Positions 2,020 to 48,305 of a DNA stretch of 64,000 nt are shown here, in pieces. A program made the position numbers and the translations under genes. The notes below the pieces were generated by a model. It saw only the letters and a list, made by a program, of their open reading frames with translations, did not search any database and was not told the origin of the DNA. This DNA is from Eledone cirrhosa (taxonomy: Eukaryota): positions 68,076,001 through 68,140,000 of the forward strand of contig OZ024744.1 in assembly GCA_964016885.1 (NCBI GenBank). Direction: 5' to 3'. The stretch's first letter is position 1, and every line of letters begins with the position of its first letter.

Positions 2020-2530
2020 TTTAAAACATATTTGTTATGTTATTCTACTGTAAATTTATTCATATGTTCTGTTTATATTTTCATTCTGAAAGAATTACAA
2101 ACGATTTGTAATGTTATTTATACAACTGTGAATAAAATATTTTCTTTTATATTTACCTTCGCTAGAACGCTGTCTTGTTGACATGTTGACAAAGTCTCCC
2201 TCTCTCTGTGTTGTCTGACAGTGCTCTCTCTCTCTCTCTTTCTTGTGTTATCCATGTTGAAAGAAATAATAATAATAATGATTTCATTTATTGGTCACAA
2301 GGGCCAACATATAGGGGACAATTCAAAAGACTGGGACAGTGGGGGTTTACATACACAATATGTAAACAATATAAATAACAATAACAAAATAACAAGAAAA
2401 ATACAAGAAAAATTCCCCAATAGGGAGGATAACCACCCAGGGTTCACTCAGGTACCCCACCAATTCTGTATGACCCAACTCTTCGAGAGCACATGGAAAG
2501 GTCACCCTTCTCCTCCTCAAATTCACTCAC

Positions 2531-5500
2531 CTACAGGCGCATGATCAGAGTAGGCCCACTCACATAGGCCATTCTCGCCACATTCACCCACCATTCAGCA
2601 AATGTACTGAGGGGAAGCACTTCTCTCTCCACCCTCACCTTCCTTTCCAAGTGAAACTTGAAAAAGTTGAAAAGTGTCTGCCTTCAGTCCTTTCAACCTG
2701 GTCCACCATACAACCTCTTTCGCTACTGCCACCAGACAGAGGAAAATTGCCTGCCCATTCTTGCCAAAAGAAGGCGGCGGGTCGATCTTCACTATGGACT
2801 CGGCCGATAGCCGGATCCATTCTACACGCGACAACAACTGTTTGACATAACTCCACAAGTCAGTAATGCACAGACACTGTGCAGAATGGTTTCGTCACTA
2901 TGCGCGCATCTCGGACAGGTCCGTCTGACAGCACGTCCGTGCCTGTAGAGTTTATTTCGAACCAGCAGTGCCCCTCGGTAGTACTGCGAAGCGAGGGATT
3001 TTTTGAAATTATCCATCGTCCCCGGCTCGAAAGTCCTCCGGAACTGACTGGTTAGTTCGACTTCATCAACGCCCAGAGCCTCTCCGACTGCGTCGTCGCA
3101 CTTGCCCACCACTAATCCTCTATAGAACTCGAGAGTGGAAGTTCCACTGACCGCATTGCCGGCCTGGTAGAGGGCAGTGGGTGCCTAGCAACATTCCAGA
3201 TGCCAGTCATGCAGTTTCGGTCTCTTCTTCAACCAGGACTGCAGCTCAGTCAAAGAAACGAGCTGCAGAAAGACCTGTCTGACAAACGACGACCACACCT
3301 GTTCACCGTTTAAGCAGAATATCTGGAGATGCCGCAGTCTCAGCGCATGTCTGCGCATCATTAGCCACGGCATGCCCAGCCCCCCACGTAGAGGGTGCTG
3401 GCAGCAGATGGACCACCCTACCAACGGAACATGTCCCCTCTCCTCCACAACAATTTGAAGAGGAACCGTTTCAAGTTGGCAAGGCGCGAACGGGGGCAAG
3501 GGACGATGGTCAGGCGGTAGTAGATTACGGATACGATGTACGCTTTTGCCACCTCCGCCCGACCTTTCCATAAATAGCTTCCTCGCAGCCCATTTCTGGG
3601 TGAGAGTGGCTATCCTGCCCGTCACCTCGTCCCAATTATTATCCACCTGGAGGTCTGGCCTGAACCAAACCCGGAGCAACTTTACTTGTCCGTCCAGCGT
3701 CCAATGACTTGCCTCTCCAGGTGCCGAGTTGCAAGACCACCAACTTTTCCGGTTAAGTTTTGCTCCCGTCAACCTTTCATATTCCTCCAATAAGTTGCCG
3801 ACCACCTCGATTTCCGAGGTGTCCGACACCATTACGGTGATGTCGTCCGTATAAGCCCACACGGCCTTTCTGTGTCCCGGTTTGAGCGGGATGCTCTGCA
3901 AAAGCTCTAGCTTTTGCAGTAAAGGCTCGAGAGTCAATACGTACAGAAGGGAGGAGAGAGGGTACCCTTGATGGACTGATCGGGAGATCTGAAATGGTTC
4001 TGAGAGGTGGCCATTAACTTTGACCACTGAGCAGATGCCGCTATGCATTGCAGCGATCCAGCTTCTGAAAACGGGGCCGAAGCCAGCTGCCTTGAGGACA
4101 GCCTCCAGGTACCAATGGTCGACCCTATCGAATGCTTTCGATTGTTCTAAATTGACCAGTGCCCCTCCGAAGTCAGGTTTACACCCTACCCTCTCTATGA
4201 TGTACCGCATGAGGTGGAGGTTGTCGTGTATGGACCTGGTTGGGATTGCGCAAGTTTGTGGCTCCCCAACCAAATCCTCGATGACAAGTGCCAACATCTT
4301 CACTAACACCTTGGCCAAAATCTTAAACTCTGTGTTGAACAGAGTTATGGGCCTGAAATTGTCTAATGTGTTCCTCTTGTTCTCATCTTTCCTTATCAGC
4401 GTCACTACGCCCCGGCTCACAGAACTGGGAATACTCGCATTCTGCTGCCAGTTGCAGTAGAGCGCTTCGAGGAGATCGGAGAACAAGTCTGGCATATTTA
4501 CGTAAAACTCGTAGGACAGAGCATCCAAACCAGGTGACTTGCGCCTCATGCAGCCGACAAGGGCATCCTGAATCTCGGATGAAGTAATCGGCATTTGCAG
4601 CGCTCAGCATAGGCCATCGAGAGTTTCGGCACGCCATTGAGATAGGGACTGAAGTCCGCCACCTTCTCTGACCCGCCACATCCCCAAAACAACCGAGTAA
4701 AATGTTGGCGAAAGGCCTCACACATTCGCTTGGAATCACTCAGCCGGTGTCCGTCTCGGTCCATCAAAGACCGAATTATGGTTTTATTACCACATTGCGC
4801 CTCCGCCACGCGGGCCCATCAAACAACTTTGGTTCCCTCGTTTCTCAGGGCATGCGCCTTAGCTCTGACAATGCAACCTTGGTGTTTCGCATTGAAGAAA
4901 TGGTCTAATGCCATTCTCGCCGCTAGCACGTCAGTTGCAATGCCACTACAAACAGCCTCGTCTAACTTATCTACCAGCTCCCCCTCCTTTCTAGTTTTCT
5001 CTAAACCCTATCGACATTACTCTAATCTCTGTTGAGAGCTCCCCCACCATCTTTTGTTGACGACTCCCCCTGTCACCTAAATTGTTGACCCGGTCCTTGT
5101 AAGCCTTACGTGCCGGAAACGACATGTTCAGCTTCCAGTAACCAGGTTCTAAACTACGCGTCTTATCTAAGTCGACCATACAGATCACAAACTTGTGATC
5201 TGAATAGGTGACTGTTTTAAACCGTGGACAGCTTACACTATTACTGTCTATTTTCCTAATGAATATCCTGTCTATATACGATCTAGATGACCCTATGCGG
5301 TTGGTCCAGGTCCACATTGGTGCATTAGGGAAATCTAGTCGGTACCTGTCAGACAGTTGGAACTGGCTGATCAAGTACTTGAGGTTTTTGCACCCCACCC
5401 CCACTCCCCGCTCCTATTGGATTCTCCCACACAGTCCCAACGTGCATCTAAGATACCGTTCCAGTCCCCCGCTAACAGTAAAGGGCAAGACGTACCCAGG

Positions 5501-5857
5501 TGTCTAAAGAAGTCCGGCCGTCCTGCCCCAGACGGCCACCAGTTTAAAGGCACCACCTTCGCTATTGTTCACGTCCAGGGCCACCAACTTACCATCCCGG
5601 AAGAGCGACTTTACCTCAAGATCCAGGCCTTTCCTAAACAGCACTTCCACCCCACCTCCCATTCCCGGCCAACTAATAGATGCAAAGATCTGATAGTCGT
5701 CGAAAATGGGAGCTAGTGCGCGCGTGTCGGAAATCCTGGTCTCGCTGACGGCAATTACATCCATTTCTAGAGACCTAAGGTCGTTGAGCAGGTGACCCTG
5801 CTTCCAGGACGATCCCAGGCCTCGAACATTTAAACTTCCTACTCTTAATACGGTCAT
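2531..5857 (-). pseudogene. Tx1 ORF2 (APE endonuclease, reverse transcriptase, CCHC finger), frameshifted
   Basis: ORF pieces MTVLRVGSLNVRG, GDWN, SYIDRIF, YSDH, KSPGLD, FRPITL, EQSKAFDRV, QGYPLS, YTDD, CPRC..ETILH. Confidence 0.92.
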
Positions 5858-5890
5858 GTTGGCAGGCTAAAAGAGAGAGGAAAGGTTTAC

Positions 5891-7826
5891 TTACCTTCCG
5901 GGCTCTTGTGAAGGTCGGGTGGTTCGACCTCTATAGTTGGTGGGGTTTCTTTTGGGAACCCCTTTAAAAGTCTTGAAGTCGGTTTTACGTTCGGAGTTCC
6001 CACGTCCCGAGGAAAGCTGTCTCATATCTCTTTGTATAAATTTGAGCGACATTTGCACCAGAAACAAATCTTCCGGCACGCAATATGTGCTCGATTTTAA
6101 AATTTCCCCCTCTTTTTGTATTTCTTTACTTCGTGCTACAAGGGCCATCGATTCCTTGTTGGCCCGCCTGACAAGCACGAAGTTTTGTATGTTTTGTTGG
6201 TGTGATTTTATTTGTTTGCATGACTATGGTGGTGATGGTTTTGGTGGTGTTGTTTCGGGTGTGTCTGTGTTTGTTGTGAGTGCGATATCTGTGGTTTCAG
6301 ATGTTTGCGTGTGCATTTCTTCTTGCGTCTGTTTAGGTTGTTTGTGTTTGGGGGATTCTGGTGATGGTGGTGTTGAAGTTGGTGTTGTTGGGGGTATGTT
6401 TGCGTGGGTGGTGTCTGAATTTTTTTATTGTGGGTGTTTTTCTGCTTTGTTGAGTTTTTTTTCTTTTTGTGTTTCCTTTTTTGTATTTTTGGCGATTTTG
6501 GTTTTCCCTCATCTTCACAACTGGTAGATGAGGGGTCTGTGTCTGTGTGTTTATGTTTTTATTGTTGTGTGTATTTGTGGGGGAAGGGAAATTTGACAAC
6601 TTTCCTCGTTTCTCCCCTGGGTAGTCAATGTTGGTGGTGGTGTTTCTATTGGTGTTGTTGCTGGTAGTTTTGCCAGTGCTGGTGTTGGTTGTGGTCCTCG
6701 CCCCGGCATTAGCAGCAGTGGAGCCCTTCGACCCCTTGCATCTTTCAGCAGTTGAGGGTAGAATGGTTTTTTTCCCCAGAAACTAAACAATGCGGCCTTC
6801 CGCCCTCAGTCATAATGTGAATTACCGTCCTGTTCTGAAGACAGATGTGGTCCAGAATTGTCTTCACATTCTCGGGCCTGATCTGGAGAAGGATATCCAG
6901 GTCAACCCCGGACCAGTCCTCTCTGGCCATTCTTGTCACTTCTATCGGGACGGTATCCGTCCCCTCCACAATCACACATCACAGAAGCCACCACATGTCA
7001 AGTCCTGGTGGGATACTGGGAATGCGGAGACGAGCTGTTCTATTTCCCATGTGGGAGGGGTACATTATGACCTTGCTGGTTTTGCAAGGGGTCATAGCAT
7101 GTTTCATAATGAGGGCTTCTGACTTAAACAGCACCGAAATGGTGCCATATTGTCTGCCCCTCGCTATGTATTTGGTGTCATCCCTGGTACACCTCAGCGT
7201 GACTTCAACATCTGCTTGTGTAATTAAAGCTGCCCTCTTGGTTTCTGCTGAGATGTATCTGCAATGCACCCTTCCGCGCTCCACTGCTTCAATAGCTTCT
7301 ACCGAGACAGTTAAGTTGGCCCAGGTTTGCTCTTGCTTGATGAGCTTCCAGGCCTGGGCCAACTTTTCATCTTTGTTCAAGAGGTCCATGCTGAAGCATG
7401 GCCTCTTTTTGGCTGTTTCCGCAGCGAAAGTATTTTTGTTGTTTTCGTTGGTGGTGTTGTTGTCGTTGTTCTTGTTGGTGTTGTTGCTGTTATCCCTGTT
7501 GCAGTTGGTTGTGTCTTTGGTGCCGCCGTTGTTGTTCTCGATGCAATTTGTATGTTGCTGTTGTCGCTATTTGTTTTCATATTATTCGAGTTAATATTGT
7601 TGTTGCATCTGTTGTCCTTTTTTCTGATGTCTGTATTTTGGTTGTGATTGGTGTGATCATTTTTTTCAAAATTAGAGTTCTGTGTTGTTGTCATTGCTAT
7701 CTTTGTTCGCGTTGTTTGTGGTGGTGTTTGTTGTATTAATTTCTGTGTTCGCTGTAACTCTCCTCTCAACTTTTACATAACAGCAGACATATTGCTGGGG
7801 GGGGGGGGGGGGGGGGGGCTAGCCAT
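5891..7826 (-). pseudogene. Tx1 ORF1 (gag-like RNA-binding protein), frameshifted
   Basis: AAAAACATGGCT start as in copies B/C, T/N-rich N-terminus, RGRQYGTISVLF matching B's RGKKYATVDVLF, and EGGRPHC knuckle remnant. Stop at 5891. Confidence 0.8.
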
Positions 7827-8003
7827 GTTTTTTTTGTTTTTCGATAATTTTTAAATGTAAATAGTTCAAATATTATACTTGCCCCTTCACAGGGCAAATC
7901 CAAAGGCTTATATCCCTTACACAACAAAAATTTAACAATAAATAATTATGACAGGTAAATAAAGAAACTTACGAGAGCGAGCAAAAAGACATTCGATCAG
8001 ACG

Positions 8004-12277: not shown

Positions 12278-13160
12278 GGTTATGACAAAAAGCACCCAGT
12301 CCACACTGTAAAGTGGTCATGCAGGTGTTATGACAAAAAGCACCCTGCCCACTCTGTACATTGGTCATGTAGGTGTCACGACAAAAAGCACCCAGCCCAC
12401 ACTGTAAAGTGGTCATGTAGGTGTCACGATAAAAAGCACCCAGTCCACACTGTAAAGTGGTCATGCAGGTGTTATGACAAAAAGCACCCTGCCCACTCTG
12501 TACATTGGTCATGTAGGTGTCACGACAAAAAGCACCCAGCCCACACTGTAAAGTGGTCATGTAGGTGTTACGACAAAAAGCACCCAGTCCACACTGTAAA
12601 GTGGTCATGCAGGTGTTATGACAAAAAGCACCTTGCCCACTCTGTACATTGGTCATGTAGGTGTCACGACAAAAAGCACCCAGCCCACACTGTAAAGTGG
12701 TCATGTAGGTGTCACGACAAAAATCACCCAGTCCACACTGTAAAGTGGTCATGTAGGTGTCATGGCAAAAAGCACCCAGCCCACACTGTAAAGTGGTCAT
12801 GCAGGTGTTATGACAAAAAGCACCTAGTCCACACTGTAAAGTGGTCATGTAGGTGTCATGACAAAAAGCACCCAGTCCACACTGTAAAGTGGTCATGTAG
12901 GTATCACGACAAAAAGCACCTAGCCCACACTGTAAAGTGGTCATGTAGGTGTCACGACAAAAAGCACCCAGTCCACACTGTAAAGTGGTCATGTAGGTGT
13001 CATGACAAAAAACACCCAGCCCACACTGTAAAGTGGTCATGTAGGTGTCATGGCAAAAAGCACCCAGCCCACACTGTAAAGTGGTCATGTAGGTGTTATG
13101 ACAAAAAGCACCCAGCCCACACTGTAAAGTGGTCGTGTAGGTGTCATGACAAAAAGCACC
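12278..13160. repeat. 48-bp minisatellite, ~18 copies, inside a SINE-like element (tail 13161-13337 ending in (GAT)n)
   Basis: Unit GTGTCATGACAAAAAGCACCCAGTCCACACTGTAAAGTGGTCATGTAG. About three diverged units occur with the same tail on the - strand at 28415-28600. Confidence 0.95.
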
Positions 13161-13792: not shown

Positions 13793-14760
13793 CAAGGGTC
13801 GGCAACCTTTTGGGGTGTGCAGGCCACATAGCTATGCAGTGACTCATCAACAGGCCACATAGCTATGCAGTGACTCGTCAACAGGCCACATAGCTATGCA
13901 GTGACTCATCAACAGGCCACATAGCTATGCAGTGACTCATCAGCAGGCCACATAGCTATGCAGTGACTCGTCAGCAGGCCACATAGCTATGCAGTGACTC
14001 ATCAACAGGCCACATTGCTATGCAGTGTCTCGTCAACAGGCCACATTGCTATGCAGTGTCTCGTCAACAGGCCACATAGCTATGCAGTGTCTCGTCAACA
14101 GGCCACATTGCTATGCAGTGTCTCGTCAACAGGCCACATAGCTATGCAGTGTCTCGTCAGCAGGCCACATAGCTATGCAGTGTCTCGTCAGCAGGCCACA
14201 TAGCTATGCACTGTCTCGTCAACAGGCCACATTGCTATGCAGTGTCTCGTCAACAGGCCACATAGCTATGCAGTGTCTCGTCAGCAGGCCACATAGCTAT
14301 GCAGTGTCTCGTCAGCAGGCCACATAGCTATGCAGTGTTTCGTCACCAGGCCACATTGCTATGCAGTGACTCATCAACAGACCACATATGCAGTGACTCG
14401 TCAGCAGGCCACATTGCTATGCAGTGACTCATCAACAGACCACATAGCTATGCAGTGACTCGTCAGCAGGCCACATAGCTATGCAGTGACTCATCAACAG
14501 ACCACATAGCTATGCAGTGACTCGTCAGCAGGCCACATTGCTATGCAGTGACTCATCAACAGACCACATAGCTATGCAGTGACTCATCAACAGACCACAT
14601 AGCTATGCAGTGACTCGTCAACAGGCCACATAGCTATGCAGTGACTCGTCAACAGGCCACATAGCTATGCAGTGACTCATCAGCAGGCCACATAGCTATG
14701 CAGTGACTCATCAACAGGCCACATAGCTATGCAGTGACTCATCAACAGGCTACATAGCTG
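13793..14760. mobile_element. hAT (Charlie-like) MITE inflated by a 31-bp tandem array
   Basis: Left end CAAGGGTCGGCAAC; 8-bp direct repeat TATTAGAA at 13785-13792 and 14761-14768. The right TIR is eroded to CTG. Confidence 0.7.
13820..14760. repeat. 31-bp minisatellite, ~30 copies
   Basis: Unit CAGGCCACATAGCTATGCAGTGACTCATCAA, contiguous with no spacers. Confidence 0.97.
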
Positions 14761-15990: not shown

Positions 15991-16322
15991 AAATTGGCAC
16001 CAAGCCTTAAAAAAAACTTTTTTGAAATCATGTGTAAGACAAATTCTTACACAGATAGAGGTATAGTTAATAAAATTATCATCATTGTTATTATTATTAT
16101 TATTATTGAATGCCATGGTTGACGGAGACTCGGCTCTGTAAGGTATAGTAATTTTTAACCGTTAAAACAATTGTAAATTGTTTAAAACTTGAACCAAATT
16201 GTTGATAAAGACACCCTCCTCCTCGTGAGAGGGGTCTTTCTGTCCGTTATTTGGCCCTTCGGGGTTAAATAACCAGTTATTGGGGTTTTGTACCCAAAAT
16301 TTCATTTTAAACAAAAAACAAC

Positions 16323-18406
16323 ATGGCTACGAAAAAGAAATTTCATACGTCACGCCCACTCATTCCGTCTTCTTCTTCCTCAATCATCACTACAGCAGAG
16401 AGAAGATTGTCTCTCTCCCTCCCTTCTTTAAATGTGTCTCTCTCCCTCTCTTCTCTTTCGCAAGTGACGAAAGAAAAGAAAAGTCTCGTGCAAAGCGTGC
16501 AAGGTTTCTCCACGACGACGACAGCGACGAAACAGGTGTGCGGGAAATACGAAAACCCAGTTCATTCGTCTGACGTCAGGAATAATAGCAGTAGCAGCTG
16601 TAATAACAACAGCAACAGTGACAATGAAAACAACAGTAGCAGCCGCAACAGCATCACCAGCAGCATAAACAACAACAGCATTAGCAGCAGCAACACCAAC
16701 AACAACCACAGCAACAGCGGCGGAGGCAGTAGTCGTAGTACCCGCAGCAACAACAAAAGTACCAGCAGCTCTGACGACAACAACAACAGCAGAGAAAAAC
16801 CAATCTCATTTGCAGGTATTGCGAAAAACTTGGAAACAATCCTCATAACAAATGAGGAATTAGAGGAAGCGAAGAAGATGGTGACAAAGAACGGACACCG
16901 AGCAATCTGCAAGGCAGCGGAAAAATGTTTCGAAACCCAAGAGCACTGTACGGTCACGTACCGTACAGTAAGTACAAAATCCCGTAGGGTGGAAAGAGCC
17001 ACAGAGGCCCAAATACAAAAAGCCTTGGGGTCTGTGTGGCAGCGGAAAACGCACATCACCCGGGGCAAAAAATATGCCACCGTAGACGTACTTTTTGCCA
17101 CACCCCAGGAGGCAAAGGCCCAATCAGTAGTGACCCTAAGGAGCGAGGAAATGGTGTTGGTGCCCTCCTACTGTGGGCAAAAAATTGTGAGGGTCAAACT
17201 GACCCACGTCCCCTCCCGGAATGACCCCTTCTTGGCTGGCCGCGTCTGTCCTCGTCGGAATCGAGGACAAAACAACTGTACTGCAAGTACAGAAAAAAGT
17301 AAGAGAAGATTGGGTCGGCTCCTCCATTGAGATGCTAATCCAAACCAACCAGGAGTGCATCGAAGCTATCCCGGATGTGATAGACTTCGATAACGGCACT
17401 CAACTGCCCATAAGTGTTGAGGGCAAACGCCCGAAATGCTTTCGCTGTGGATCGAAGACTCACCTCAGGGCCTTCTGCAACGAGAAGACCCTGAGAAAGG
17501 AGAAAACCCCCCTCCTTCCGAATCCGGCTCCACGGCTACCAGCAACAGGACAAGCGGCAACCAGGAACGATAGGCCCGTGGCACCCATACCCAGTCCACG
17601 GAAATCAAAAACAGCAGCAGCAGTGGAAATACTAACAACAACAACAGCAATACCAAATGCAGCTGCAACAGAGACTCCAATGCAAACATCACCAACAACA
17701 ACAAGTGAAAGAGTGGAGCTGGTACCCCTCCCCGACCTCACAGAATCAGACATGGAGTGTGAGGTGGGAGAGAGATGGCAAAAGGCACAAACGCAGAAGC
17801 AGCGCATCGTCGCCTTTGAAAAGGGAGGAAAGAAATGAGAAAAGGGTAAAGTCTACTGCAAAGAGACCCACAGCAGCAACAACACCAACACCCTCACCAC
17901 CCACACTAGCACCACCATCACCACCGGCGACAACCCCACCGCCAACAACACCTTCAACACCACCACCACAAGCACCAACATCGCAAACACAACAACAAAA
18001 CACACACACCCAGCAACAACGACAAGAAAATAGCAGAACCACACCCCACCCCCAGAAAAACAAATGCACGGCAATAAATACACACAACAAGAAACTAATG
18101 ACTTACATAATTGAACACACAGACATTTCACAACAGGACTACATAATACCAGCACCAATCAAAACGCCAACTAACATAAGACTGCTAAAAATAGCACAGA
18201 AACAATACACAAATATTAAAACGAAATTCCCCAACGCAGTTGGTGATTTCAGGGACCTAGGAGGAACCATCAATCGAAGAGTATACTCAGATATTCTCTT
18301 AGAAGAGCCGACGACCAGCCGAAGGGACGATTCAACGGTCCCTTCACCAGACGATCAAGTGAAAAGGGATGTAAAAACCATCCCTCCTCTACCAAAAGTA
18401 CGGTAA
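16323..18406 (+). pseudogene. Tx1 ORF1 with CCHC zinc knuckle, two frameshifts
   Basis: Track ORFs 16323-17330, 17221-17838 and 17657-18406 join after correcting a 1-nt insertion (~17213) and a 10-nt deletion (~17784), both seen against copy C. Contains ISFAGIAK and CFRCGSKTHLRAFC. Confidence 0.88.
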
Positions 18407-18441
18407 GTGGTCTTTCCCATCTTTTCCACTCTATTTTAAAC

Positions 18442-21400
18442 ATGACCTCAATCAGAATAGGCAGCATAAATGCGCGTGGCTTGGGGTCATCATGGAAGCA
18501 GGGTCACCTGCTCAACGACCTCAGGTCACTAAACATAGATGTAGTGGCCATCAGCGAGACCAGAATCTCCGAAGCACGGGCCTTCGCACCGATCTTCGGC
18601 GGCTACGATGTGTACGCATCTCCCAGCCGTCCTGGATCGGGTGGAGGAGTTGCTGTGCTTTTTCGGAGAGGTTTGGATCTCGCCATACGGGCCATCTTCC
18701 TGGACCCAGAGGGTAAGCTGGTGGTGCTGGACGTGACCAGCGGAGACGGGCAAGCTTTCAGGCTAGTGGCCGTCTATGCCCCGACAGGAGCAGGGCGGCC
18801 TGATTTCTTCCGGCGTCTGGAGACCTTTCTTGGAACGTCCCGCTCTTTAGTGTTAGTGGGCGACTGGAACGGGATCTTAGATGCACGCTGGGACTGTGTG
18901 GGATTAGCGGATAGGGGTGGAGGGTGCAAGAGCCTCACCAACCTGCTCAGGCGTTTTGAACTGTCTGACAGGTACCGATTGGATTTCCCGAATGTGCCAA
19001 TGTGAACTTGGACAAATCGCATAGGGTCATCCAGATCATATCTAGATAGAGTATTTTGTAGGGAAATAGATAGGTCTAGCATAGGCTGTCCACAATTCAA
19101 GATAGTCAGCTACACGGACCACAAATTCGTGATCTGTGTGCTTGACTTAGATAGGCTTCATAGACGAGGACCCGGCTACTGGAAGCTAAACGCGTCCTTA
19201 CCAGCGCGCAAGGCCTACAGAGACCGGATTAGCGGACTAGTTAAGCGGGCGTTGACGGGGGCCATCGTCAACAACAAGTGGTGGTTTGCTCTGAAAAGAG
19301 CGATTAGAATAGAATCGATTAGGTTTAGTAAGGCTTTAGCAATAGAGAAAAATAGAGCAGAGGGAGAACTAGTTAGAAAATTAGACGAGGCGCTTAGCAA
19401 AGGCATTGCGACCGACGTGCTTGCGGCGAAATTGGCCCTTGACCAATTCTTCAATGCAAAGCACGAAGGCTGCGTTGTCAGAGCAAGGGTGCGTGCTCTC
19501 AGACACGAGGGGACGAAAGCCGTTCAATGGGCCCGAGTGGCGGAGGCGCGTCGTGGCAACAAAGCCACGATCCGGTCTTTGGTGGACCACGACGGGCGCA
19601 TGCTACTCGATCCCGGGCAAATGTGTGAAGCTTTTCAGCGACACTTCGCTCAGCTGTTCGGGGGCAGCGGTGGGCCGGGTAGAGGGATGGACTTTAGTGT
19701 CTACCTCGACGGACTGCCGCGGCTCTCGGCCACTGAGGCGAAGTGTTGCGAAAAGCCGATAACAGCCGCTGAAGTAAGGGAGGCAATGACTGGCTGCACA
19801 AGGGGTAAATCGCCTGGTTTGGATGGTCTGCCCTATGAACTTTACGTACAGATGCCAGACTTGTTCGGAGGCCTCTTGGCGGACGTCTACTGCAACTGGC
19901 AACAGAACGGGAGAATTCCCAGTTCTGTGAGCCGAGGAGCGGTGGCACTGCTGAGAAAGGATCCGAACAAGGGGGATAACATAGAAAATTTCCAGCCCAT
20001 AACTCTGGGAACCTGGCACGGGTGGGTCCTTGATCAATTTAGATCAGTCGAAAGCTTTCGATAGGGTCGACCATCGTTACCTAGCGGCAGTCCTGAGGGC
20101 GGCTGGCTTTGGGCCCGTCTTCAGAGGCTGGATCGCTGCCATGCACAGCGACATCTGCTCTGTAGTGAGAGTGAACGGTCACCTGTCGGAACCGTTCAAC
20201 ATCATGCGCTCGGTCCGCCAAGGATGTCCCCTCTCGTCCCTCTTGTACGTATTGACTCTCGAGCCATTACTGCACAAACTGGAGACGTTGAGGGGAGTCC
20301 CGCGCGAACTAGGATGCGGAAGATCCGTGTCAGCATATGCGGACGATGTCACCGTAGTGGTGTCGAACGCCAAACACATCGAGGCGATCGGCACTACACT
20401 AAGAGAATACGAAGCGGTGACAGGAGCAATGATCAACCAGGAAAAATCAGTGGGCCTGCAGCTCGGCACCTGGAGAGGCAGGTCCATGCCGTCCAACAGC
20501 GTCGTCGGACGCTGGACGGACGGACCGGTTAAATTGCTAGGGGTCTGGTTCGGTCCGGACCTCCAGACGGACAAAAACTGGGACGAGGTGACGAGCAGGG
20601 TGGCTTCTCTCATCCAGAAATGGGCGGAGAGGAAGCTATCCCTGAAAGGTCGAGCGGAGGTGGCTAACGCGTACATCGCGTCTGTCATCTGCTACCGCCT
20701 GACCGTCGTACCTTGTCCTAAGCCTCGCCTGACTGCGCTGGAGCGTTTGCTCTTTCGCTTTTTGTGGAAGGGACGTGCTCCGATGGTCAGGCGGTCCATC
20801 TGTTGTCAACACCCGCTATGTGGAGGGCTGGGCATGCCGTGGCTGATGATGTGCAGGCACGCGCTCAGGCTACGACATCTCTACCTCTTCCTCGACGGTG
20901 ATCAGGTGTGGTCGCCGTTTGCTAGGCGCGTATTTCCCCAGCTCGTTTCCTTGACGGAGCTGCAGTCCTGGGTCAAGCGAAGACCGAGAGGGAGCGCCTG
21001 GTGACTGGAATGTCTTCAGGCGCTCACAGCCCTCGACCGATCGGGCAATGTGATCGGTGGAAACTCCACCTCGGCGTTCTATAGAGGATTAGTGGAGGGT
21101 AAGAGCGACGACGTACTTGGGGAAACTCTAGGCGTCGACGAAAATCAACTAGCCAATCTCTTTGGAAGTACTTTCGGGCCGGGGCCTATGGACAACTTCC
21201 AGAAATCTCTGGCCTGGCAGTGCTACCGAGGAACCTTGCCAGTTCGGGATAAACTCTACAGGCATGGAGGTGCCGTCAGCCGGGCATGTCCGAGATGCGC
21301 GCAGGGCGACGAAACCGTCCTGCACGCACTCGTCCAGTGTCCGAAAATTGCTGACTTGTGGGTTTATGTCGAACACCTGCTGTCGCGTTTAGGACGGATC

Positions 21401-21703
21401 CGGCTATCATCTGAGTCCATCGTGAGGATTGCCCCGCCCTCCTCCTTTAGCCGGGAAGGGCAGGCAGTTTTTATCTGCCTGGTGGCCATGGTGAAAGAGA
21501 TAGTATGGTGGACACGTTTGAAAGGGCTGAAGACGAGCACTTACCTCTTCGGTGATGCTCTGATTGACTTTTTCAAATTTCATTTGAAAAGGAAAATCAG
21601 AGTAGAGAGGGAAGTGCTCTCTTCCCAGCATTTTGTTGAAAGATGGGTGAGAGAAGCAAGAATGGCCCGAGTGAATGGGCCTACTCTGAGTATATATCTG
21701 TAA
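18442..21703 (+). pseudogene. Tx1 ORF2 (APE-RT-CCHC), disrupted
   Basis: GDWN, YLDRVF, TDH, DQSKAFDRV, RQGCPLS, YADD, CPRC..HALVQC. Stops at 19003 and 21002; 158-bp deletion at ~20007 relative to copy C. Confidence 0.95.
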
Positions 21704-21964
21704 ATTAAAGGTGGAAAACTGGGAGAGGGCACTTGCCTTGGTGGTCAGGGTCATTGTGGCTTTTTATTGGGCTTTCTCCACAAATGTCCCTCCGAAGTCT
21801 GCCCCCTATTGGGGAATTTTTCATTGTTATTTTCATTGTTATTTTTGTTACATCCTCTGTTTTTGTTTTTTTACACGCAGAAATGCCCATTTGTACCGTC
21901 CTGTATTGTCCTGTACTGTCCTTAATGTCTACTTTATGTGAACCCTTGTGGTTAATAAAGAAAA

Positions 21965-22001
<37 letters not shown>

Positions 22002-22584
22002 GAATGCCATGGTTGACGGAGGCTCGGCTCTGTAAGGTATAGTAATTTTTAACCGTTATAACAATTGTAAATTGTTTAAAACTTGAACCAAATTGTAGAT
22101 AAAGACACTCTCCTCCTCGTGAGAGGGGTCTTTCTGCCCGTTATTTGGCCCTACGGGGTTAAATAACCAGTTATTGGGGTTTTGTGCCCAATATTCATTT
22201 TAAACCGTAAAAAAACATGGCTACAAAAAAGAATTTTCACAAGTCACTCCCACTCTTTCCGTCATCTTCTTCCTCAATCATCATTACGTCAGAGAAAAGA
22301 TCGTCTCTCTCCCTCCCTTCTCTAAATGTGGTATCGCCTCTGTCGAAAGGGACGCCATTAAAGGAAAAAAAAAATGTAGTTTCTCGTAGCGTTCTTCATC
22401 AAGAGAATGCACGTGCCGTGGAACATTTCTCCACGACAACGACAACGACGAAAGATATGTGCGGTAAATATGGAAAGCCATTTCATTCGTCTGACGTCAT
22501 GAAGAATAGCAGCAGCAGCAGCAGCAACAGTGGCGAGAAAAATACTAGTAGCAGCCGCAACAACATCAGCAGCAGCATAAACAA

Positions 22585-22620
<36 letters not shown>

Positions 22621-25600
22621 CAACAACAACAGCAACAACAGCAGCAGCAACAGCAACAACAACAACAACAACAACGGTGGCGGTGGTCATAGTACCAGCA
22701 GCAACAACAAAAGTAACAGCAGCTCTGACGACAACAACAAGAAAGAAAAACCAATCTCGTTTCTAGGTATCGCAAAGAACCTGGAAACCATCCTTATAAC
22801 AAATGAGGAATTACAGGAAGCAAGGAAGATGGTGACGAAAACCGGACACCGAGCAATCTGCAAGGCTCCGAAGAATTTTTCGAAACCCAACAGCACTGTA
22901 CCGGTCACGTACCGTACAGTAAGCACAAAATCCCGTAGGGTTGAAAGAGCCACAGAGGCTCAAATACAAAAAGCCTTAGGGTCTGTGTGGCAGCGCAAAC
23001 GCATATCACCCGAGGCAAGAAATATGCCACCGTGGACGTGCTTTTTGCCACACCCAAGGAGGCAAAGGCTCAATCCTTAGTGACCCTAAGGAGCGTGGGA
23101 ATGGTGTTGGTGCCCTCCTACTGCGGGCAAAAAATTGTGAGGGTCAAACTGACCCACGTTCCCCCAGGGATGACCCCTTCTTGGCTGGCCGCGTCTGTCC
23201 TCGTCGGAATCGAGGACAAAACAACTGTACTGCAAGTACAGAAAAAAGTACGAGAAGATTGGGTCGGCACCTCCATTGAGATATTAATCCAAACCAACTA
23301 GGAGTGCATCAAAGCTATCACGGATGTGATAGACTTCGATAACGGCACTCAACTACCCATAAGTGTTGAGGGCAAACGCTGGAAATGTTTTCGCTGTGGA
23401 TCGAAGACTCACCTCAGGGCCTTCTGCAATGAGAAGACCCTGAGAAAGGAGAAGACGCCCTCCTTCCGAAACCGGCTCCACTGCTACCAGCAACAGGACA
23501 AGCGGCAAGCAGGAAGGATAGGTCCGTGGCACCCATACCCACGCCACGGAAATCAAGAACAGCAGCAGCAGTGGAAGTATTAACAACAACAACAGTAATA
23601 CCAACTGCAGCTGCAACAGAAACTCCACTGCAATCTTCACCAACAACAACAGAATCGCACATGGAGTGTGAGGTGGGAGAGGTATAGCAAAAGGTCGCAA
23701 GAAGGCACAAACGCAGAAGCAGCGCATCGTCCCCTTCGAAAAGGGAGGAAAGAAATGAAAAAAGGGTAAAGGCTACTGCAAAGAGACTTACAGCAGCAAC
23801 ACCACCAACACCATCACCACCCACACTAACACCACCATCACCACCGGCGGCAACCCCACCGCAAACAACAAAAAAATCTTCAACACCACCACCACAAGCA
23901 CCAACATCGCAAACACAACAACAAAACACACACACCCAGCAACAACGACAAGAAAATAGCAGAACCACATCCCACCCCGAGAAAGAGAAATGCGCAGCAA
24001 TAAATACACACAATAAGAAACTAATGACTTACATAATTGAACACACAGACATTTCACAGCACAACTACATAATACCAGCACCAATCAAAACTCCTACGAA
24101 CATAAGACTGGTAAGAATAGCACAGAAACAATACACAAACATTAAAACGAAATTCCCCAACGCAGTTGGTGATTTCAGAGACCTAGGAGGGACACTCGAC
24201 CGGAGAGTATATTCGGATATACTCACAGAAGAGCCGACGACCAGCCGACCAAGTGAAAAGGGATGGAGAAACCATCCTTCCTCTACGAGAAGTAAGGTAA
24301 GTGGTCTTTCTCATCTTTTCCATTCCATTTCAACATGACCTCACTCAGAATAGGCCGCATAAATGCGCGAGGCTTGGGGTCATCATGGAAGCAGGGCCAC
24401 CTGCTCAACGACCTCAGGTCACTAAACATAGATGTAGTGGCCATCAGCGAGACCAGAATCTCCGAAGCACGGGTCTTCGGCGGCTACGATGTGTACGCAT
24501 CTCCCAGCCGTCCTGGATCGGGGGGAAGGAGTTGCTGTGCTTTTTCGGAGAGGTTTGGATCTCGCCATACGGGCCATCTTCCTGGACCCAGAAGGTAAGT
24601 TGGTGGTGCTAGACGTGACTGGCGGGGACGGGAAAGCTTTCAGGCTAGTGGCCGTCTATGCCTCGACAGGAGCAGGGCGGCCTGATTTCTTCCGGCGTCT
24701 GTAGACCTTTCTAGGAACGTCCCGCTCTTTAGTGTTAGTGGGCGACTGGAGCGGGATCTTAGATGCACGCTGGGACTGTGTGGGATTAGCGGATAGGGAA
24801 GGAGGGTGCAAGAGCCTCACCTACCTGCTCAGACGTTTTGAACTGTCTGACAGGTACCGATTGGAATTCCCGAATGTGCTAATGTGGACTTGGACAAACC
24901 GCATCGGGTCATCCAGATCATATCTAGATAGAGTATTTTGTAGGGAAATAGATAGGTCTAGCATATGCTGTCCACAATTCAAGATAGTCAGCCACAAATT
25001 CGTGATCTGTGTGCTTGACTTAGATAGGCTTCATAGACGAGGACCCGGCTACTGGAAGCTAAACGAGTCCTTATCAGCGCGCAAAGCCTAGAGAGACCGG
25101 ATTAGCGAACTAGTTAAGCGAGTGTTGACGGGGGCCATCGTCAACAACAAGTGGTGGTTTGCTCTGAAAAGAGCGATTAGAATAGAGTCCATTAGGTTTA
25201 GTAAGACTTTAGCTATAGAGAAAAATAGAGCAGAGGGAGAACTAGTTAGAAAATTAGACGAGGCGCTTAGCAAAGGCATCGCGACCGATGTACTTGCGGC
25301 GAAATTGGCCCATGACCAATTCTACAATGCAAAGCACGAAAGCTGCGTTGTCAGAGCTAGGGTGCGTTCTCTCAGACACGAGGGGACGAAAGCCGTTCAA
25401 TGGGCCCGAGTGGCGGAGGCGCGTCGTGGCAACAAAGCCCCGATCCACCTTTGGTGGACCACGACGGGCGCATGCTACTCGATCCCGAGCAAATGTGTGA
25501 AGCTTTTCAGCGACACTTCGCACAGCAGTTCGGGGGCAGCGGCGGGCCAGATCGAGGGATGGACTTTAGTGTCTACCTCGACGGACTGCCACGGCACTCG

Positions 25601-27916
25601 GCCACTGAGGCGGAGTGTTGCGAAAATCCGATAACAGCCGCTGAAGTAAGGGAGGCAATGACTGGCTGCACAAGGGGTAAATCGCCTGGTTTGGATGGTC
25701 TGCCCTATGAACTTTACGTACAGATGCCAGACTTGTTCGGAGGCCTCTTGGCGGACGTCTACTGTAACTGGCAACAGAACGGGAGAATTCCCAGGTCTGT
25801 GAGCCGAGGCGCGGTAGCGCTGCTGAGAAAGGATCCGAACAAGGAGGATAACAGATAATTTCAGGCCCATAACTCTGCTAAACACAGAGTTCAAGATTTT
25901 GGCCAAGGTGCTAGCAAAGAGGTTGGCGCTTGTCGTTAGTGGTCTGGTGGGAGAGGCGCAGACATGCGCCATTCCCGACAGATCCATCCACGACAACCTA
26001 CACCTCATGCGATACATCGTAGAGAGGGTAGCTAGGGAACCTGGCACGGGTGGGTCCTTGATCAATTTAGATCAGTCGAAAGCTTTCGATAGGGTCGACC
26101 ATCGTTACCTAGCGGCAGACCTGAAGGCGGCTGGCTTTGGGCCCGTCTTCAGAGGCTGGATCGCTGCCATGCACAGCAACATCTGCTCTGTGGTGAGAGT
26201 GAACGGTCACCTTTCGGAACCGTTTAACATCATGCGCTCGGTCCGCCAAGGATGTCCCCTCTCGTCCCTCTTGTACGTATTGACTCTCGAGCCATTACTG
26301 CACAAACTGGAGACGTTGAGGGGGGGGGGTGTCCTGCGCGAACTAGGATGCGGAAGATTCGTGTCAGCATATACGGACGATGTCACCGTAGTGGTGTCGA
26401 ACGCCAAACACATCGAGGCGATCGGCACTACACTAAGAGAATACGAAGCGGTGACAGGAGCAGTGATCAACCAGGAAAAGTCAGTGGGCCTGCAGCTCGG
26501 CACCTGGAGAGGCAGGTCCATGCCGTCCAACAGCGTCGTCGGGCGCTGGACGGACGGACTGGTTAAATTGCTAGGCGTCTGGTTTGGTCCGGACCTCCAG
26601 ACGGACAAAAACTGGGACGAGGTGACGAGCAGGGTGGCTTCTCTCACCCAGAAATGGGCGGAGAGGAAGCTATCCCTGAAAGGTCGAGCGGAGGTGGCTA
26701 ACGCGAACATCGCGTCCATCATCTACTACTGCCTAACCGTCGTACCTTGTCCTAAGCCTCGCCTGACTGCGCTGGAGCGTTGGCTCTTTCGCTTTTTGTG
26801 GGAGGGACACGCTCCGATGATCAGGCGATCCATCTGCTGTCAACACCCGCTATGTGGAGGGCTGGACATGCCGTGGCAGATGATGCGCAGACACGCGCTC
26901 AGGCTACGACATCTCCACCTCTTTCTCGACGGTGATCAGGTATGGTCGCCGTTTGCTAGACCCGTCTTTCCCCAGCTCGTCTCCTTGACAGAGCTGCAGT
27001 CCTGGGTCAAGCGAAGACCGAGAGGGAGCGCTTGGAGACTGGAATGTCTTCAGGCACTCACAGCCCACGACCAATCGGGCAATGTGATCGGTGGAAACTC
27101 CACCTTGGCGTTCTATAGAGGATTAGTGGAGTGGAAGAGCGACGACGTACTTGGAGAAACTCTAGGCGTCGATGAAAATCAACTAGCCAATCTCTTCGGA
27201 AGTACTTTCGGGCCGGGGCCTATGGACAACTTCCAGAAATCCCTGGCCTGGCAGTGCTACCGAGGAGCTTTGCCAGTTCGGGATAAACTCTACAGGCATG
27301 GAGGTGCCGTCAGCCGGGCATGTCCGAGATGCGCGCAGGGCGACGAAACCGTCCTGCACGCACTCGTCCAGTGTCCGAGCATTGCTGACTTGTGGGTTTA
27401 TGTCGAACACCTGCTGTCACGTGTAGGACGGATCCAGCTATCAGCTGAGTCCATTGTGAGGATTGCCCCGCCCTCTTCCTTTAGCCGGGAAGGGCAGGCA
27501 GTTTTTATCTGTCTGGTGGCCATGGCGAAAGAGATAGTATGGTGGACACGTTTGAAAGGGCTGAAGACGAGCACTTACCTCTTCGGTGATGCCCTGATTA
27601 ACTTTTTCAAATTTCATTTGAAAAGGAAAATCAGGGTAGAGAGGGAAGTGCTCTGTTCCCAGCATTTTGTTGAAAGATGGGTGAGAGAAGCAAGTATGGC
27701 CCGAGTGAATGGGCTTTCTCTACAAATGTCCCTCGGAAGTCTCTCCCCTATTGGGGAATTTTTCATTGTTATTTTTTCTTACATCCTCTGCTTTTGTTTT
27801 TTTACACGCAGAAATGCCCATTTGTACCGTCCTGTACTGTCCTTAATGTCTACTTTATGTAAACCCTTGTGGTTAATAAAGAAGGCATTATTATTATTAC
27901 TATTATTATTATTATT
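22002..27916 (+). mobile_element. Tx1/L1-clade LINE, full length (copy C), head-to-tail with copy B
   Basis: Same 5' start GAATGCCATGG immediately after copy B's (ATT)n tail; own (ATT)n tail at 27887-27916. Confidence 0.95.
22217..24300 (+). pseudogene. Tx1 ORF1, disrupted
   Basis: Homologous to 16323-18406, with an expanded (CAG/CAA)n tract, a frameshift at ~22998, a stop at 23299 and further lesions. Confidence 0.88.
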
Positions 27917-46744: not shown

Positions 46745-48305
46745 ATAATAATAATGAAATTATTGTGTAAAGTGCTCAGGTGCACTACAACTCGTCAAAG
46801 GTGCATGTATAGTACATAGAATAATACACAAATGTCAGGGAAGTACATGCGTGTATGTGTTAGCTGTAGTGTTGGCGGATCTCGGGAAGCATGGAGGCCT
46901 TAAAGGATGCAGTGTCTCGACAGCTAACAACTGATGCAGGTAGTTTGTTCCATGCTTCAGCAACTCTGAGCGTGAAAAAATGTTTCCGAAAGTCATGGGA
47001 ACTGTGCTGTTTTCTTACTTTGTGGGCATGTCCACGTGTGTTAGACAACATGGTTAACAATTTTGTGGGTGTTTACCAAGTCAGTTGCCAGGTGTTGGAG
47101 CTTCAATGAATCCATGCCCAGGGAAGCTAGGTGCTCAGAGTATGGTAGATGCCTGATGGAGGGTATTCGCTTGGTTGCACATCTCTGAACAGTTTCCAGG
47201 CGGTCAATGTTCTGAGCAAGATAGGGGTTCCAGACTGGTGATGCAAATTCCAAGTGTGGTCGCACCATAGCTGTGTACAGCCTTAAATAGATACCTGGAG
47301 AGCAGCTGACAAAGGTCTTGCTGAGTGATGCTAAGACACCCTCGGCCCTCTTGACAATTTTAGAGACGTGCCTCGTCCAACGCAAATCGCTGCTGACCGT
47401 AATGCCCAGGTCACGTTCACAGGAAGATTTCTTGATATTAGTGCTGTGGAGGGAGTATGTGGACGCTGGATTTTTCCTCCCAAAATGCATGATGGTGCAC
47501 TTGTCCACAGCTAGCTTGAGTTGCCAGTCTGAGATCCATTGTTGCATTGTGTCCAGGTCAGACTGCAAGCAAGATCTATAGTGTTCAGGATCTGTCCTTT
47601 TTATCTCAAGGTACAGCTTGATGTCGTCTGCGTACTTTAGTACTGTGGCATTCCTTAAGTTGGCATCTATGTCATTAATATATGCCACAAACAAAAGGGG
47701 CCAAGAACAGATCCCTGTGGTACACCAGATGACATCTCATATGGTGAGGAATGCTGTCCCAGAACCGTGACTACCTCTCTTCGACTGAGAATGAAGGACT
47801 TCAGCCAGTTAAAAAGATCATCCTTCACACCCATTGCAGAAAGTTTTGCCATAAGCCTTTTGTGTGGCACAGAATTGAAGGCCTTCGCAAAGTCAAGGTA
47901 AACAACATCCACTCATGAGCTGCCATCAGTGATCCGGGTGGGTGATGTCCTCAAGAAACTCTATAAGTTGATCACAGCAGCTGGAGTTGGGGATAAATCC
48001 AAATTGCGAGGGCCGGATAAGACTGAGAGCTCCAGAAGTTCCAAAGTGTTTCTCTGACACAGGATTCCATCAGTTTGGCGATGCAACTAGTAAGACTGAC
48101 CGGACGATAGTTCACAGGTGATGTGCGGTTACCCTTTTTGAACAAAGGAATGACACTGGCAGTTTTCCACTGTTCTGGAGTAGCACTGTTGTTCAGACAG
48201 AATTGGAAGAAGCGTGATAACTGGTGTAGAAGGAAGTACCCACCACGTTTAAGAAGCAGGTACGTAACACCATCAAGACCAGGAGAGGCATGGTTGCGTT
48301 TATTT
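46745..48305 (-). mobile_element. CR1-clade LINE, 5'-truncated
   Basis: SPGLDG, NYRPVSLT, YLDFAKAF, GVPQGSVLGP, YADD, ERDLG, RPHLEFA..WNP, TRGH..FFTLRV..WNKLP; (ATT)n tail. Confidence 0.92.

What the first reader, a model, noticed from the sequence alone, without database searches (positions are those of the whole stretch)
18395..18460. 5' splice-site consensus on the Tx1 ORF1 stop codon; splicing would fuse ORF1 to ORF2 in frame in all three copies
Seen: the ORF1 TAA lies inside G|GTAAGT in every copy (B CG|GTAAGT at 18403, C AG|GTAAGT at 24297, diverged copy A AG|GTAAGT at 5894 on the - strand), followed by a pyrimidine tract, although the surrounding sequence of A differs from B/C. The donor is in phase 2 of ORF1. 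ORF2 codon 5 is AG|A in all three (TCAG in B and C, TAAG in A), also phase 2. Removing 53, 52 or 51 nt respectively gives an in-frame ORF1-ORF2 fusion. Established: L1-type ORF2 is normally translated from unspliced bicistronic RNA by re-initiation. Inference: this family may make ORF2 by splicing a mini-intron, or use the site for U1 binding or a subgenomic RNA. Caveats: 51-53 nt is short for an intron, the Arg codon may be conserved for protein reasons, and A has an earlier TTTTAG that would be out of frame.
Basis: partly seen in the sequence, partly recalled or inferred. Interest (0 to 1): 0.75.

Follow-up and report, generated by a model that had tools for sequence, protein, structure and literature searches.

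The report
Conserved splice donor ending LINE ORF1
A group of LINE jumping genes keeps a perfect splice-donor motif at the end of its first gene, even in a very distant relative, but not to fuse its two genes as first proposed; it likely lets some transcripts splice out the enzyme gene to make a first-gene-only message, which is untested.

Summary
The G|GTAAGT motif is real at all three coordinates. It is kept in 9 LINE families of this genome (GTAATT in one). It also sits 1 nt after the ORF1 stop, non-coding, in 43 of 43 loci of a distant relative whose silent sites are saturated, so it is likely a selected donor. The proposed fusing mini-intron is not supported. Donor phase is 0, 1 or 2 by family, and in the distant relative the stop precedes the donor. 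The Arg5 AG is unremarkable. No spliced copy was found among 67 aberrant-donor copies inspected, against about 4,200 exact intact donors. No RNA holder was listed. New here: copies B and C are hybrids whose ORF1 switches family exactly at another family's donor cut and resumes after an AG (18359|18360), possibly a splicing fossil. Best reading: ORF2 is made from unspliced RNA at its own AUG, and the donor likely splices ORF2 out for an ORF1-only mRNA, as in copia; rival: U1 docking only. The scan reported this motif and hybrid before, on other windows of this genome.

The parts
16108..22001 (+). Copy B: full-length, decayed two-ORF L1-group (Tx1-like) LINE with AATAAA and (ATT)n tail; hybrid of G-type ORF1 and I-type tail/ORF2
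16323..18406 (+). ORF1 of B (frameshifted in this copy; 697 aa in intact copies); stop TAA 18404-18406
18353..18365 (+). Hybrid junction 18359|18360: left side ends exactly at the family-G donor cut; right side is the family-I ORF1 tail following CAG
18400..18408 (+). 5' splice-site consensus CG|GTAAGT of B (cut 18402|18403), phase 2, overlapping the ORF1 stop
18409..18441 (+). Pyrimidine-rich inter-ORF spacer ending in AAC before the ORF2 ATG; holds no AG in B
18442..21703 (+). ORF2 of B (APE endonuclease, RT, zf-RVT; broken in this copy, 1139 aa in intact copies); the proposed acceptor AG 18454-18455 is the Arg5 codon
21855..21880 (+). T-rich tract plus CAG in the 3' UTR: candidate acceptor for an ORF1-only RNA; shared by the B, I and F 3' UTRs only
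22002..27916 (+). Copy C, head-to-tail with B; same hybrid family, junction 24253|24254; 3' UTR CAG at 27811
24294..24302 (+). Donor AG|GTAAGT of C (cut 24296|24297), phase 2
2265..8003 (-). Copy A: decayed full-length element of the A family, 1-nt insertion near 6043; ORF2 ATG at 5857
5887..5897 (-). Donor AG|GTAAGT of A (cut 5895|5894); the family ORF1 reads Gly-Lys-stop through it (phase 1; stop 5889-5887)

Best explanation
These LINEs keep a perfect splice-donor motif at the end of ORF1 in every reading phase and in a very distant relative; ORF2 is likely translated from unspliced RNA at its own AUG, and the donor likely splices ORF2 out of some transcripts to give an ORF1-only mRNA. Shown: position, conservation, phase diversity, and the hybrid junction at a donor. 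Inferred: that U1 binds the site and that it is used; that the partner acceptor lies late in ORF2 or in the 3' UTR and turns over between families; that the cut sits next to the stop so that ORF1 stays whole whichever acceptor is used; and that read-through of head-to-tail copies once let a G-family donor splice into a neighbouring I-family copy, founding the B/C family. I put about 0.85 on the motif being selected and about 0.45 on this particular use.
For: Distant relative (L343-L386; ORF2 42% identical; four-fold sites 0.26-0.29 identical against 0.26 at random): TAA then G|GTAAGT, non-coding, in 43 of 43 loci that reach the junction, with position +7 varying. In this genome the motif is kept in phases 0, 1 and 2, while only 25 of 80 four-fold sites are invariant across 8 families. 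ATG with an AAC/AGC/AAT context is kept in all families although it lies inside the proposed mini-intron. The distant relative has a pyrimidine tract plus YAG in its 3' UTR, kept in 54 of 54 pattern-located occurrences (8 variants; overlapping loci) while the tract sequence turns over; B, I and F have a T-tract plus CAG in theirs. Hybrid: B is 84-100% identical to G in most bins (one copy 57% in one bin) up to 43 nt before its donor and 84-99% identical to I from there on; the switch is exactly at G's donor cut and after an AG of I. No two-step intermediate among 3 candidates. Precedent: Ty1/copia shGAG RNA (PMC5580714, passages read).
Against: No spliced RNA was seen. The B/I/F 3' UTR acceptor is absent at that place in G, A, D, E and H. 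No strong orthologous acceptor stands out across 11 elements; the shared YAGs score 0.5-0.75 pyrimidine and lie in ORF2 coding sequence. No ORF2-less copy among 67 aberrant-donor copies, nor by spacing among 64 units in G001; this is weak for an RNA that would need ORF2 in trans. The AG used in the hybrid has no pyrimidine tract, the junction shares a 2-nt AG microhomology, and B has one more G than family I next to it. Five-nt slips at the donor repeat occur in 2 of 30 I-type copies, so template switching can give the same join. I found one hybrid at a donor, not two. Only one distant lineage carries the motif; 0 of 18 more remote L1-like junctions do.
Confidence: 0.45

Rival explanations
1. 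The motif is a U1 docking site that is almost never spliced. Bound U1 would protect the full-length RNA from premature cleavage or decay, or affect its export or ORF2 re-initiation.
For: Deep non-coding conservation with no conserved acceptor; no spliced copies. The distant relative has a second GTRAGT just after the ORF2 stop in 45 of 45 pattern-located occurrences, which hints at a stop-linked role. U1 suppresses premature termination in EVD (PMC5580714, passages).
Against: There is little to suppress: B has no AATAAA or ATTAAA inside ORF2 and D has one. The hybrid junction at a donor suggests the site can be used.
Confidence: 0.3
2. One reading: a 48-67 nt mini-intron is removed to fuse ORF1 to ORF2 at the Arg codon.
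For: The arithmetic works for B, C, I and F. Introns of 37-65 nt exist in human (PMC4463651, abstract). The spacer is pyrimidine-rich.
Against: Out of frame for A, D, E, G and H. Impossible in the distant relative, where the stop comes before the donor. 9 of 22 invariant Arg columns are AGR in all 8 families, so the AG is ordinary. Where a YAG closes the tract before the ATG (A subtypes, D, E1, F) the join would be out of frame (my frame count). An RNA that makes ORF2 would be copied in cis and lose the intron, yet 0 of 22, 0 of 3 against 815 intact and 0 of 30 inspected of 32 copies lack it, against 3,384 intact B/C/I donors. No such joint in contigs of 4 runs (2 samples, 1 study).
Confidence: 0.04
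3. Neutral inheritance: an ancestral Gly-Lys-stop ending spells GGTAAGT and persists by descent; the hybrid join is a template switch.
For: If Gly-Lys were fixed by the protein, only two silent sites would be free within this genome (31 of 84 four-fold and 7 of 12 two-fold sites invariant; joint about 0.2). F has lost +5G. Human L1 keeps a donor for another reason, a RUNX3 site (PMC5860796, passages).
Against: The motif is non-coding and exact in a lineage with saturated silent sites (p about 0.0014). ORF1 ends differ (VR*, HR*, GK*, TE*), so Gly-Lys is not required.
Confidence: 0.08
4. The functional part is the spacer's pyrimidine tract plus AG, used as an acceptor by a 5' UTR donor to make an ORF2-only RNA (SpORF2-like), or a translation element such as a hairpin at the stop.
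For: The spacer YAG is the top-scoring acceptor in D and F. A and D have GTRAGT in the 5' UTR. Human SpORF2 exists (PMC2896524, passages).
Against: No AG before the ATG in B, C, I, G or most H; no tract at all in the distant relative; the single D copy with a changed acceptor side is a point mutant. Hairpins over the donor beat spacer shuffles at p<0.01 in 1 of 14 copies.
Confidence: 0.08

Closest known systems
Tx1-clade / L1-group non-LTR retrotransposons, e.g. microsatellite-targeting Kibi and Koshi (PMC4494074, passages)
   Same: Two ORFs, APE endonuclease plus RT plus zf-RVT, CCHC-type ORF1, insertion in a microsatellite, tandem copies.
   Different: Target and tail are (ATT)n; a conserved donor at the ORF1 end was not found in print in my searches. 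Clade placement by tree was not tested.
Ty1/copia shGAG subgenomic RNA, Arabidopsis EVD (PMC5580714, passages)
   Same: A conserved U1-type donor near the end of the structural-protein ORF, proposed to yield a structural-protein-only mRNA and to guard full-length RNA.
   Different: EVD is an LTR element with one GAG-POL frame, a short conserved intron and a proximal poly(A) site. Here the element is a bicistronic LINE, the acceptor is not conserved and no RNA is shown.
Human L1 splicing: SpORF2 (PMC2896524) and SpIREs (PMC5860796); passages
   Same: An L1-group element with retained splice sites; spliced RNAs can be re-inserted.
   Different: The human donor is in the 5' UTR and SpIREs are mostly dead on arrival. 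Here the donor is at the ORF1 end, and the candidate splice-born product is an abundant family with intact copies.
ORF2 translation by re-initiation in L1 and SART1 (review PMC5972666, passages)
   Same: Separate ORF2 AUG after a short spacer; likely the route to ORF2 here.
   Different: Neither is described in those passages with a donor on the stop.

Membership tests
L1-group / Tx1-clade LINE | ORF2 with N-terminal APE endonuclease, RT and C-terminal zinc domain | tested here: met
   PF03372, PF00078, PF13966 on intact L083; best solved relative is human L1 ORF2p, E 5e-52
L1-group / Tx1-clade LINE | Separate ORF1 with a CCHC knuckle | tested here: met
   zf-CCHC just passes the Pfam cut-off in the distant relative only; the aligned CxxC-H-C motif is seen in B (23% identity over 190 aa)
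L1-group / Tx1-clade LINE | Sequence-specific target | tested here: met
   (ATT)n directly 5' of 3 of 4 intact copies checked and of window copies A, B and C
L1-group / Tx1-clade LINE | RT groups with named Tx1 elements in a tree | not tested
Spliceosomal mini-intron fusing two ORFs | Consensus 5' splice site | tested here: met
Spliceosomal mini-intron fusing two ORFs | Conserved acceptor giving an in-frame join | tested here: not met
   Phases 0, 1 and 2 by family; stop before the donor in the distant relative
Spliceosomal mini-intron fusing two ORFs | Intron-less retrotransposed copies | tested here: not met
   0 of 67 aberrant-donor copies inspected; no joint
Spliceosomal mini-intron fusing two ORFs | Junction reads in RNA | not testable with these tools
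   No RNA holder listed
Copia-type subgenomic structural mRNA | Conserved donor at the end of the structural ORF | tested here: met
Copia-type subgenomic structural mRNA | Conserved acceptor downstream | tested here: inconclusive
   Present in the distant relative and in the B/I/F 3' UTRs, absent at that place in G, A, D, E and H
Copia-type subgenomic structural mRNA | Spliced RNA on polysomes; U1-dependent 3' end control | not testable with these tools
   Needs RNA data or mutants
Splice-born hybrid element (SpIRE-like) | Left break at a donor cut, right break after an AG | tested here: met
   2-nt AG ambiguity
Splice-born hybrid element (SpIRE-like) | Acceptor with a pyrimidine tract | tested here: not met
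   The sequence before the family-I CAG is purine-rich

The most novel reading that the evidence does not exclude
A whole lineage of LINEs uses a retrovirus/copia-like splicing strategy: a donor on the ORF1 stop turns ORF2 into an intron to make ORF1-only mRNA, and in head-to-tail arrays the same donor splices into the next copy, swaps ORF1 modules and founds new autonomous families such as the B/C family of this window.
Probability: 0.3. Interest if true: 0.75.

Novelty: new variant of a known kind. Interest (0 to 1): 0.5.

Why it matters
How LINEs make far more ORF1p than ORF2p, and how they swap ORF1 and 5' modules between families, are open questions usually answered by re-initiation and template switching (recalled). 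A deeply conserved donor at the ORF1 end would add splicing to both, in a class where splicing is reported mainly as harmful (PMC5860796). Young intact families exist here, so one RNA-seq look-up or one point mutant tests it. As it stands, the motif is solid and its use is unproven.

Tried and rejected
RNA: no RNA holder listed; the one guessed-RNA run laid 44 contigs, none over the junction. This is no evidence either way. Whole-element joint table: 15 of 447 joints shown, none from the donor, so it cannot exclude an 18402 to 21881 joint. Hairpin over the donor: folds in most copies (script stopped part-way) but beats spacer shuffles in 1 of 14; rejected as compositional; one search timed out. 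A universal 3' UTR acceptor: rejected (family H was skipped, and some copies there carry deletions). ORF2-only spliced copies in D: 1 hit, a point mutant. A second hybrid at a donor: none for A/D (3 hits), B (22), I (30 of 32), F (2), E (0) or the A/C class of G (10 inspected: 9 B-type, one of them with a short deletion after the G cut, and 1 G point mutant); H and the T class of G were not examined. L040 joins at the B donor through ACG microhomology, not an AG (my reading). More distant families in this genome: degenerate patterns gave 5 hits (control 13) and 0 hits. Viral contigs: none. Longer ORF2 homologues nearly all start at the endonuclease, so no clear natural ORF1-ORF2 fusion stood out among 44 proteins (that search is weak for long proteins). 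PMC7192593 and PMC2911113 (passages) did not bear on the question. Supplements were not read; Repbase entries could not be seen and may note the motif.
Full report
Setting. The window lies in a 3.0-Gb animal genome, likely an octopod (recall and earlier notes; not tested). It holds three decayed full-length LINEs: B and C head-to-tail on the plus strand and A on the minus strand, each with AATAAA and an (ATT)n tail. Intact relatives have a 636-697 aa ORF1 and an 1139 aa ORF2 with APE endonuclease, RT and zf-RVT. The closest solved protein is human L1 ORF2p.

Observation. The motif, the tract and the distances are as described. In B the TAA inside GTAAGT is the ORF1 stop (6 of 30 copies open to the locus edge; intact L083-L085). 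In the A family and in intact family D, ORF1 reads Gly-Lys-stop through the motif and ends at the next TAA. Window copy A has a 1-nt insertion about 149 nt upstream that shifts its frame. The claimed in-frame fusion therefore fails for A's family, and B and C are one family, so three cases shrink to one.

Families. Searches of the genome (best 40-150 candidates scored each, 20-30 fetched each) gave nine families, which I label A, B/C, D, E1, E0, F, G, H and I. All carry the motif 36-53 nt before the ORF2 ATG; F has GTAATT. Donor phase is 1 in A, D, E1, G and H, 2 in B/C, I and F, and 0 in E0, where 5 of 6 copies read on to a TAG 28 nt in. E0, F and H copies are old, so their phase rests on homology of the ORF1 tail. 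Across 8 families only 25 of 80 four-fold sites are invariant, and 9 of 22 invariant Arg columns are AGR throughout, so the proposed acceptor is ordinary. Within this genome alone the donor's conservation would be weak evidence (joint about 0.2) if Gly-Lys were fixed by the protein.

Distant relative. In 43 of 43 loci reaching the junction, the ORF1 stop is followed at once by G|GTAAGT and 7 nt later by the ORF2 ATG; there is no tract, and residue 4 is Asn. These are tandem copies of a few subfamilies and count as one lineage. ORF2 is 42% identical to B and D, and four-fold sites are at the random level (0.26-0.29 against 0.26). The motif occurs once per unit; chance at this place is about 0.0014. 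This shows nucleotide-level retention independent of the stop codon and rules out a fusion there. The same element has a second GTRAGT just after the ORF2 stop (45 of 45 pattern-located occurrences) and a tract plus YAG in the 3' UTR (54 of 54, 8 variants; loci overlap). Of 20 more remote metagenome loci (24-29% identity), 18 were examined and none has the motif at the stop.

Spliced copies. L1 proteins mainly copy their own RNA (PMC5860796, passages), so a fusion RNA that made ORF2 should lose the intron. Patterns that catch any copy whose ORF1 end is not followed by the donor gave 22 B-type, 3 A/D-type, 32 I/C-type (30 inspected), 2 F-type and 0 E-type hits, plus 10 G-side hits; none of the 67 inspected is spliced. 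Intact donors number 815 (A/D) and 3,384 (B/C/I). Contigs of 4 runs (2 samples, 1 study) show only one joint over the junction, with AC..TA ends. No RNA run could be examined.

Hybrid junction. Tested here with single copies: B matches G at 84-100% in most bins (one copy 57% in one bin) up to 43 nt before its donor and I at 84-99% from there on. The switch, window 18359|18360 (24253|24254 in C), is exactly at G's donor cut and just after a CAG of family I. No intermediate was found. Against: the AG has no tract, a 2-nt microhomology fits template switching as well, B has one extra G nearby, slips occur at these repeats (2 of 30), and one copy (L035) shows an ambiguous 4-nt extra piece. I found no second such hybrid.

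Acceptors and structure. The T-tract plus CAG at 21855-21880 is shared by B, I and F but not by G, A, D, E or H, which limits the generality of note e1-9542715. No strong orthologous acceptor emerges from 11 elements. Hairpins over the donor are compositional (1 of 14). B has no poly(A) hexamer inside ORF2 and D has one.

Mechanism. Shown: a selected-looking donor within a few bases of the ORF1 stop in any phase, a retained ORF2 AUG, and one family joined at a donor. Inferred: ORF2 from unspliced RNA, as reviewed for L1 and SART1 (PMC5972666, passages), and minority splicing from the donor that removes ORF2 and leaves ORF1 whole, as for copia shGAG (PMC5580714, passages): 0.45. Docking of U1 without splicing: 0.3. 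Neutral inheritance 0.08, acceptor or translation element 0.08, fusion 0.04.

Novelty. No paper describing a donor at a Tx1 or LINE ORF1 stop appeared or 104 (listings only; open-access library). Splicing-based structural-protein RNAs are known in copia, and retained splice sites in human L1, so this would be a new variant of a known kind. The scan has reported the same motif and hybrid from other windows of this genome; those notes are unreviewed and are not counted as support. Interest 0.5: the finding as written is wrong in its mechanism, but the motif is real, unexplained and directly testable.

Noticed in passing
G000, e.g. L231, L232 (C1:80978500-80988499; C4:157081000-157090999): Family D is very young: well over 100 copies with identical scores, most with an open 1150-codon frame, often in head-to-tail arrays with a period of about 5,840 bp.
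   Followed up: partly
L345:6470-6500 and 6705-6735 (G001): The distant relative has a second donor just after the ORF2 stop and a conserved 3' UTR acceptor, which together could be a 3' UTR intron of about 250 nt; conserved inverted repeats follow.
   Followed up: partly
G001 contigs (L343-L386): A bacterial genome record holds 64 tandem units of a eukaryotic LINE on many contigs, most likely host DNA in the bin.
   Followed up: no
window 2532-2520, minus strand: Copy A has AG|GTGAGT right at its ORF2 stop; other A copies have weaker donor-like letters there, and B has none.
   Followed up: partly
L191-L210 (family F): F has its own ORF1 end and spacer, but its ORF2 is 95-96% identical to B/I beyond the first 100 nt, which suggests a further recombination inside ORF2 rather than at the donor.
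   Followed up: no
L232 5' UTR; L095 5' UTR: Families D and A carry GTRAGT about 30 nt from the 5' end, a possible second donor.
   Followed up: partly
window 12282-13160 and 13820-14759: Minisatellites with 48-bp (18 copies) and 31-bp (30 copies) units between copies A and B.
   Followed up: no
window 47041-47547: Fragment of another LINE ORF2 C-terminus (RTE/CR1-like by recall).
   Followed up: no
run X3, loose end at window 18434: Two contigs show a variant donor GTGAGT, which keeps both a stop codon and the donor consensus; copy number unknown.
   Followed up: no
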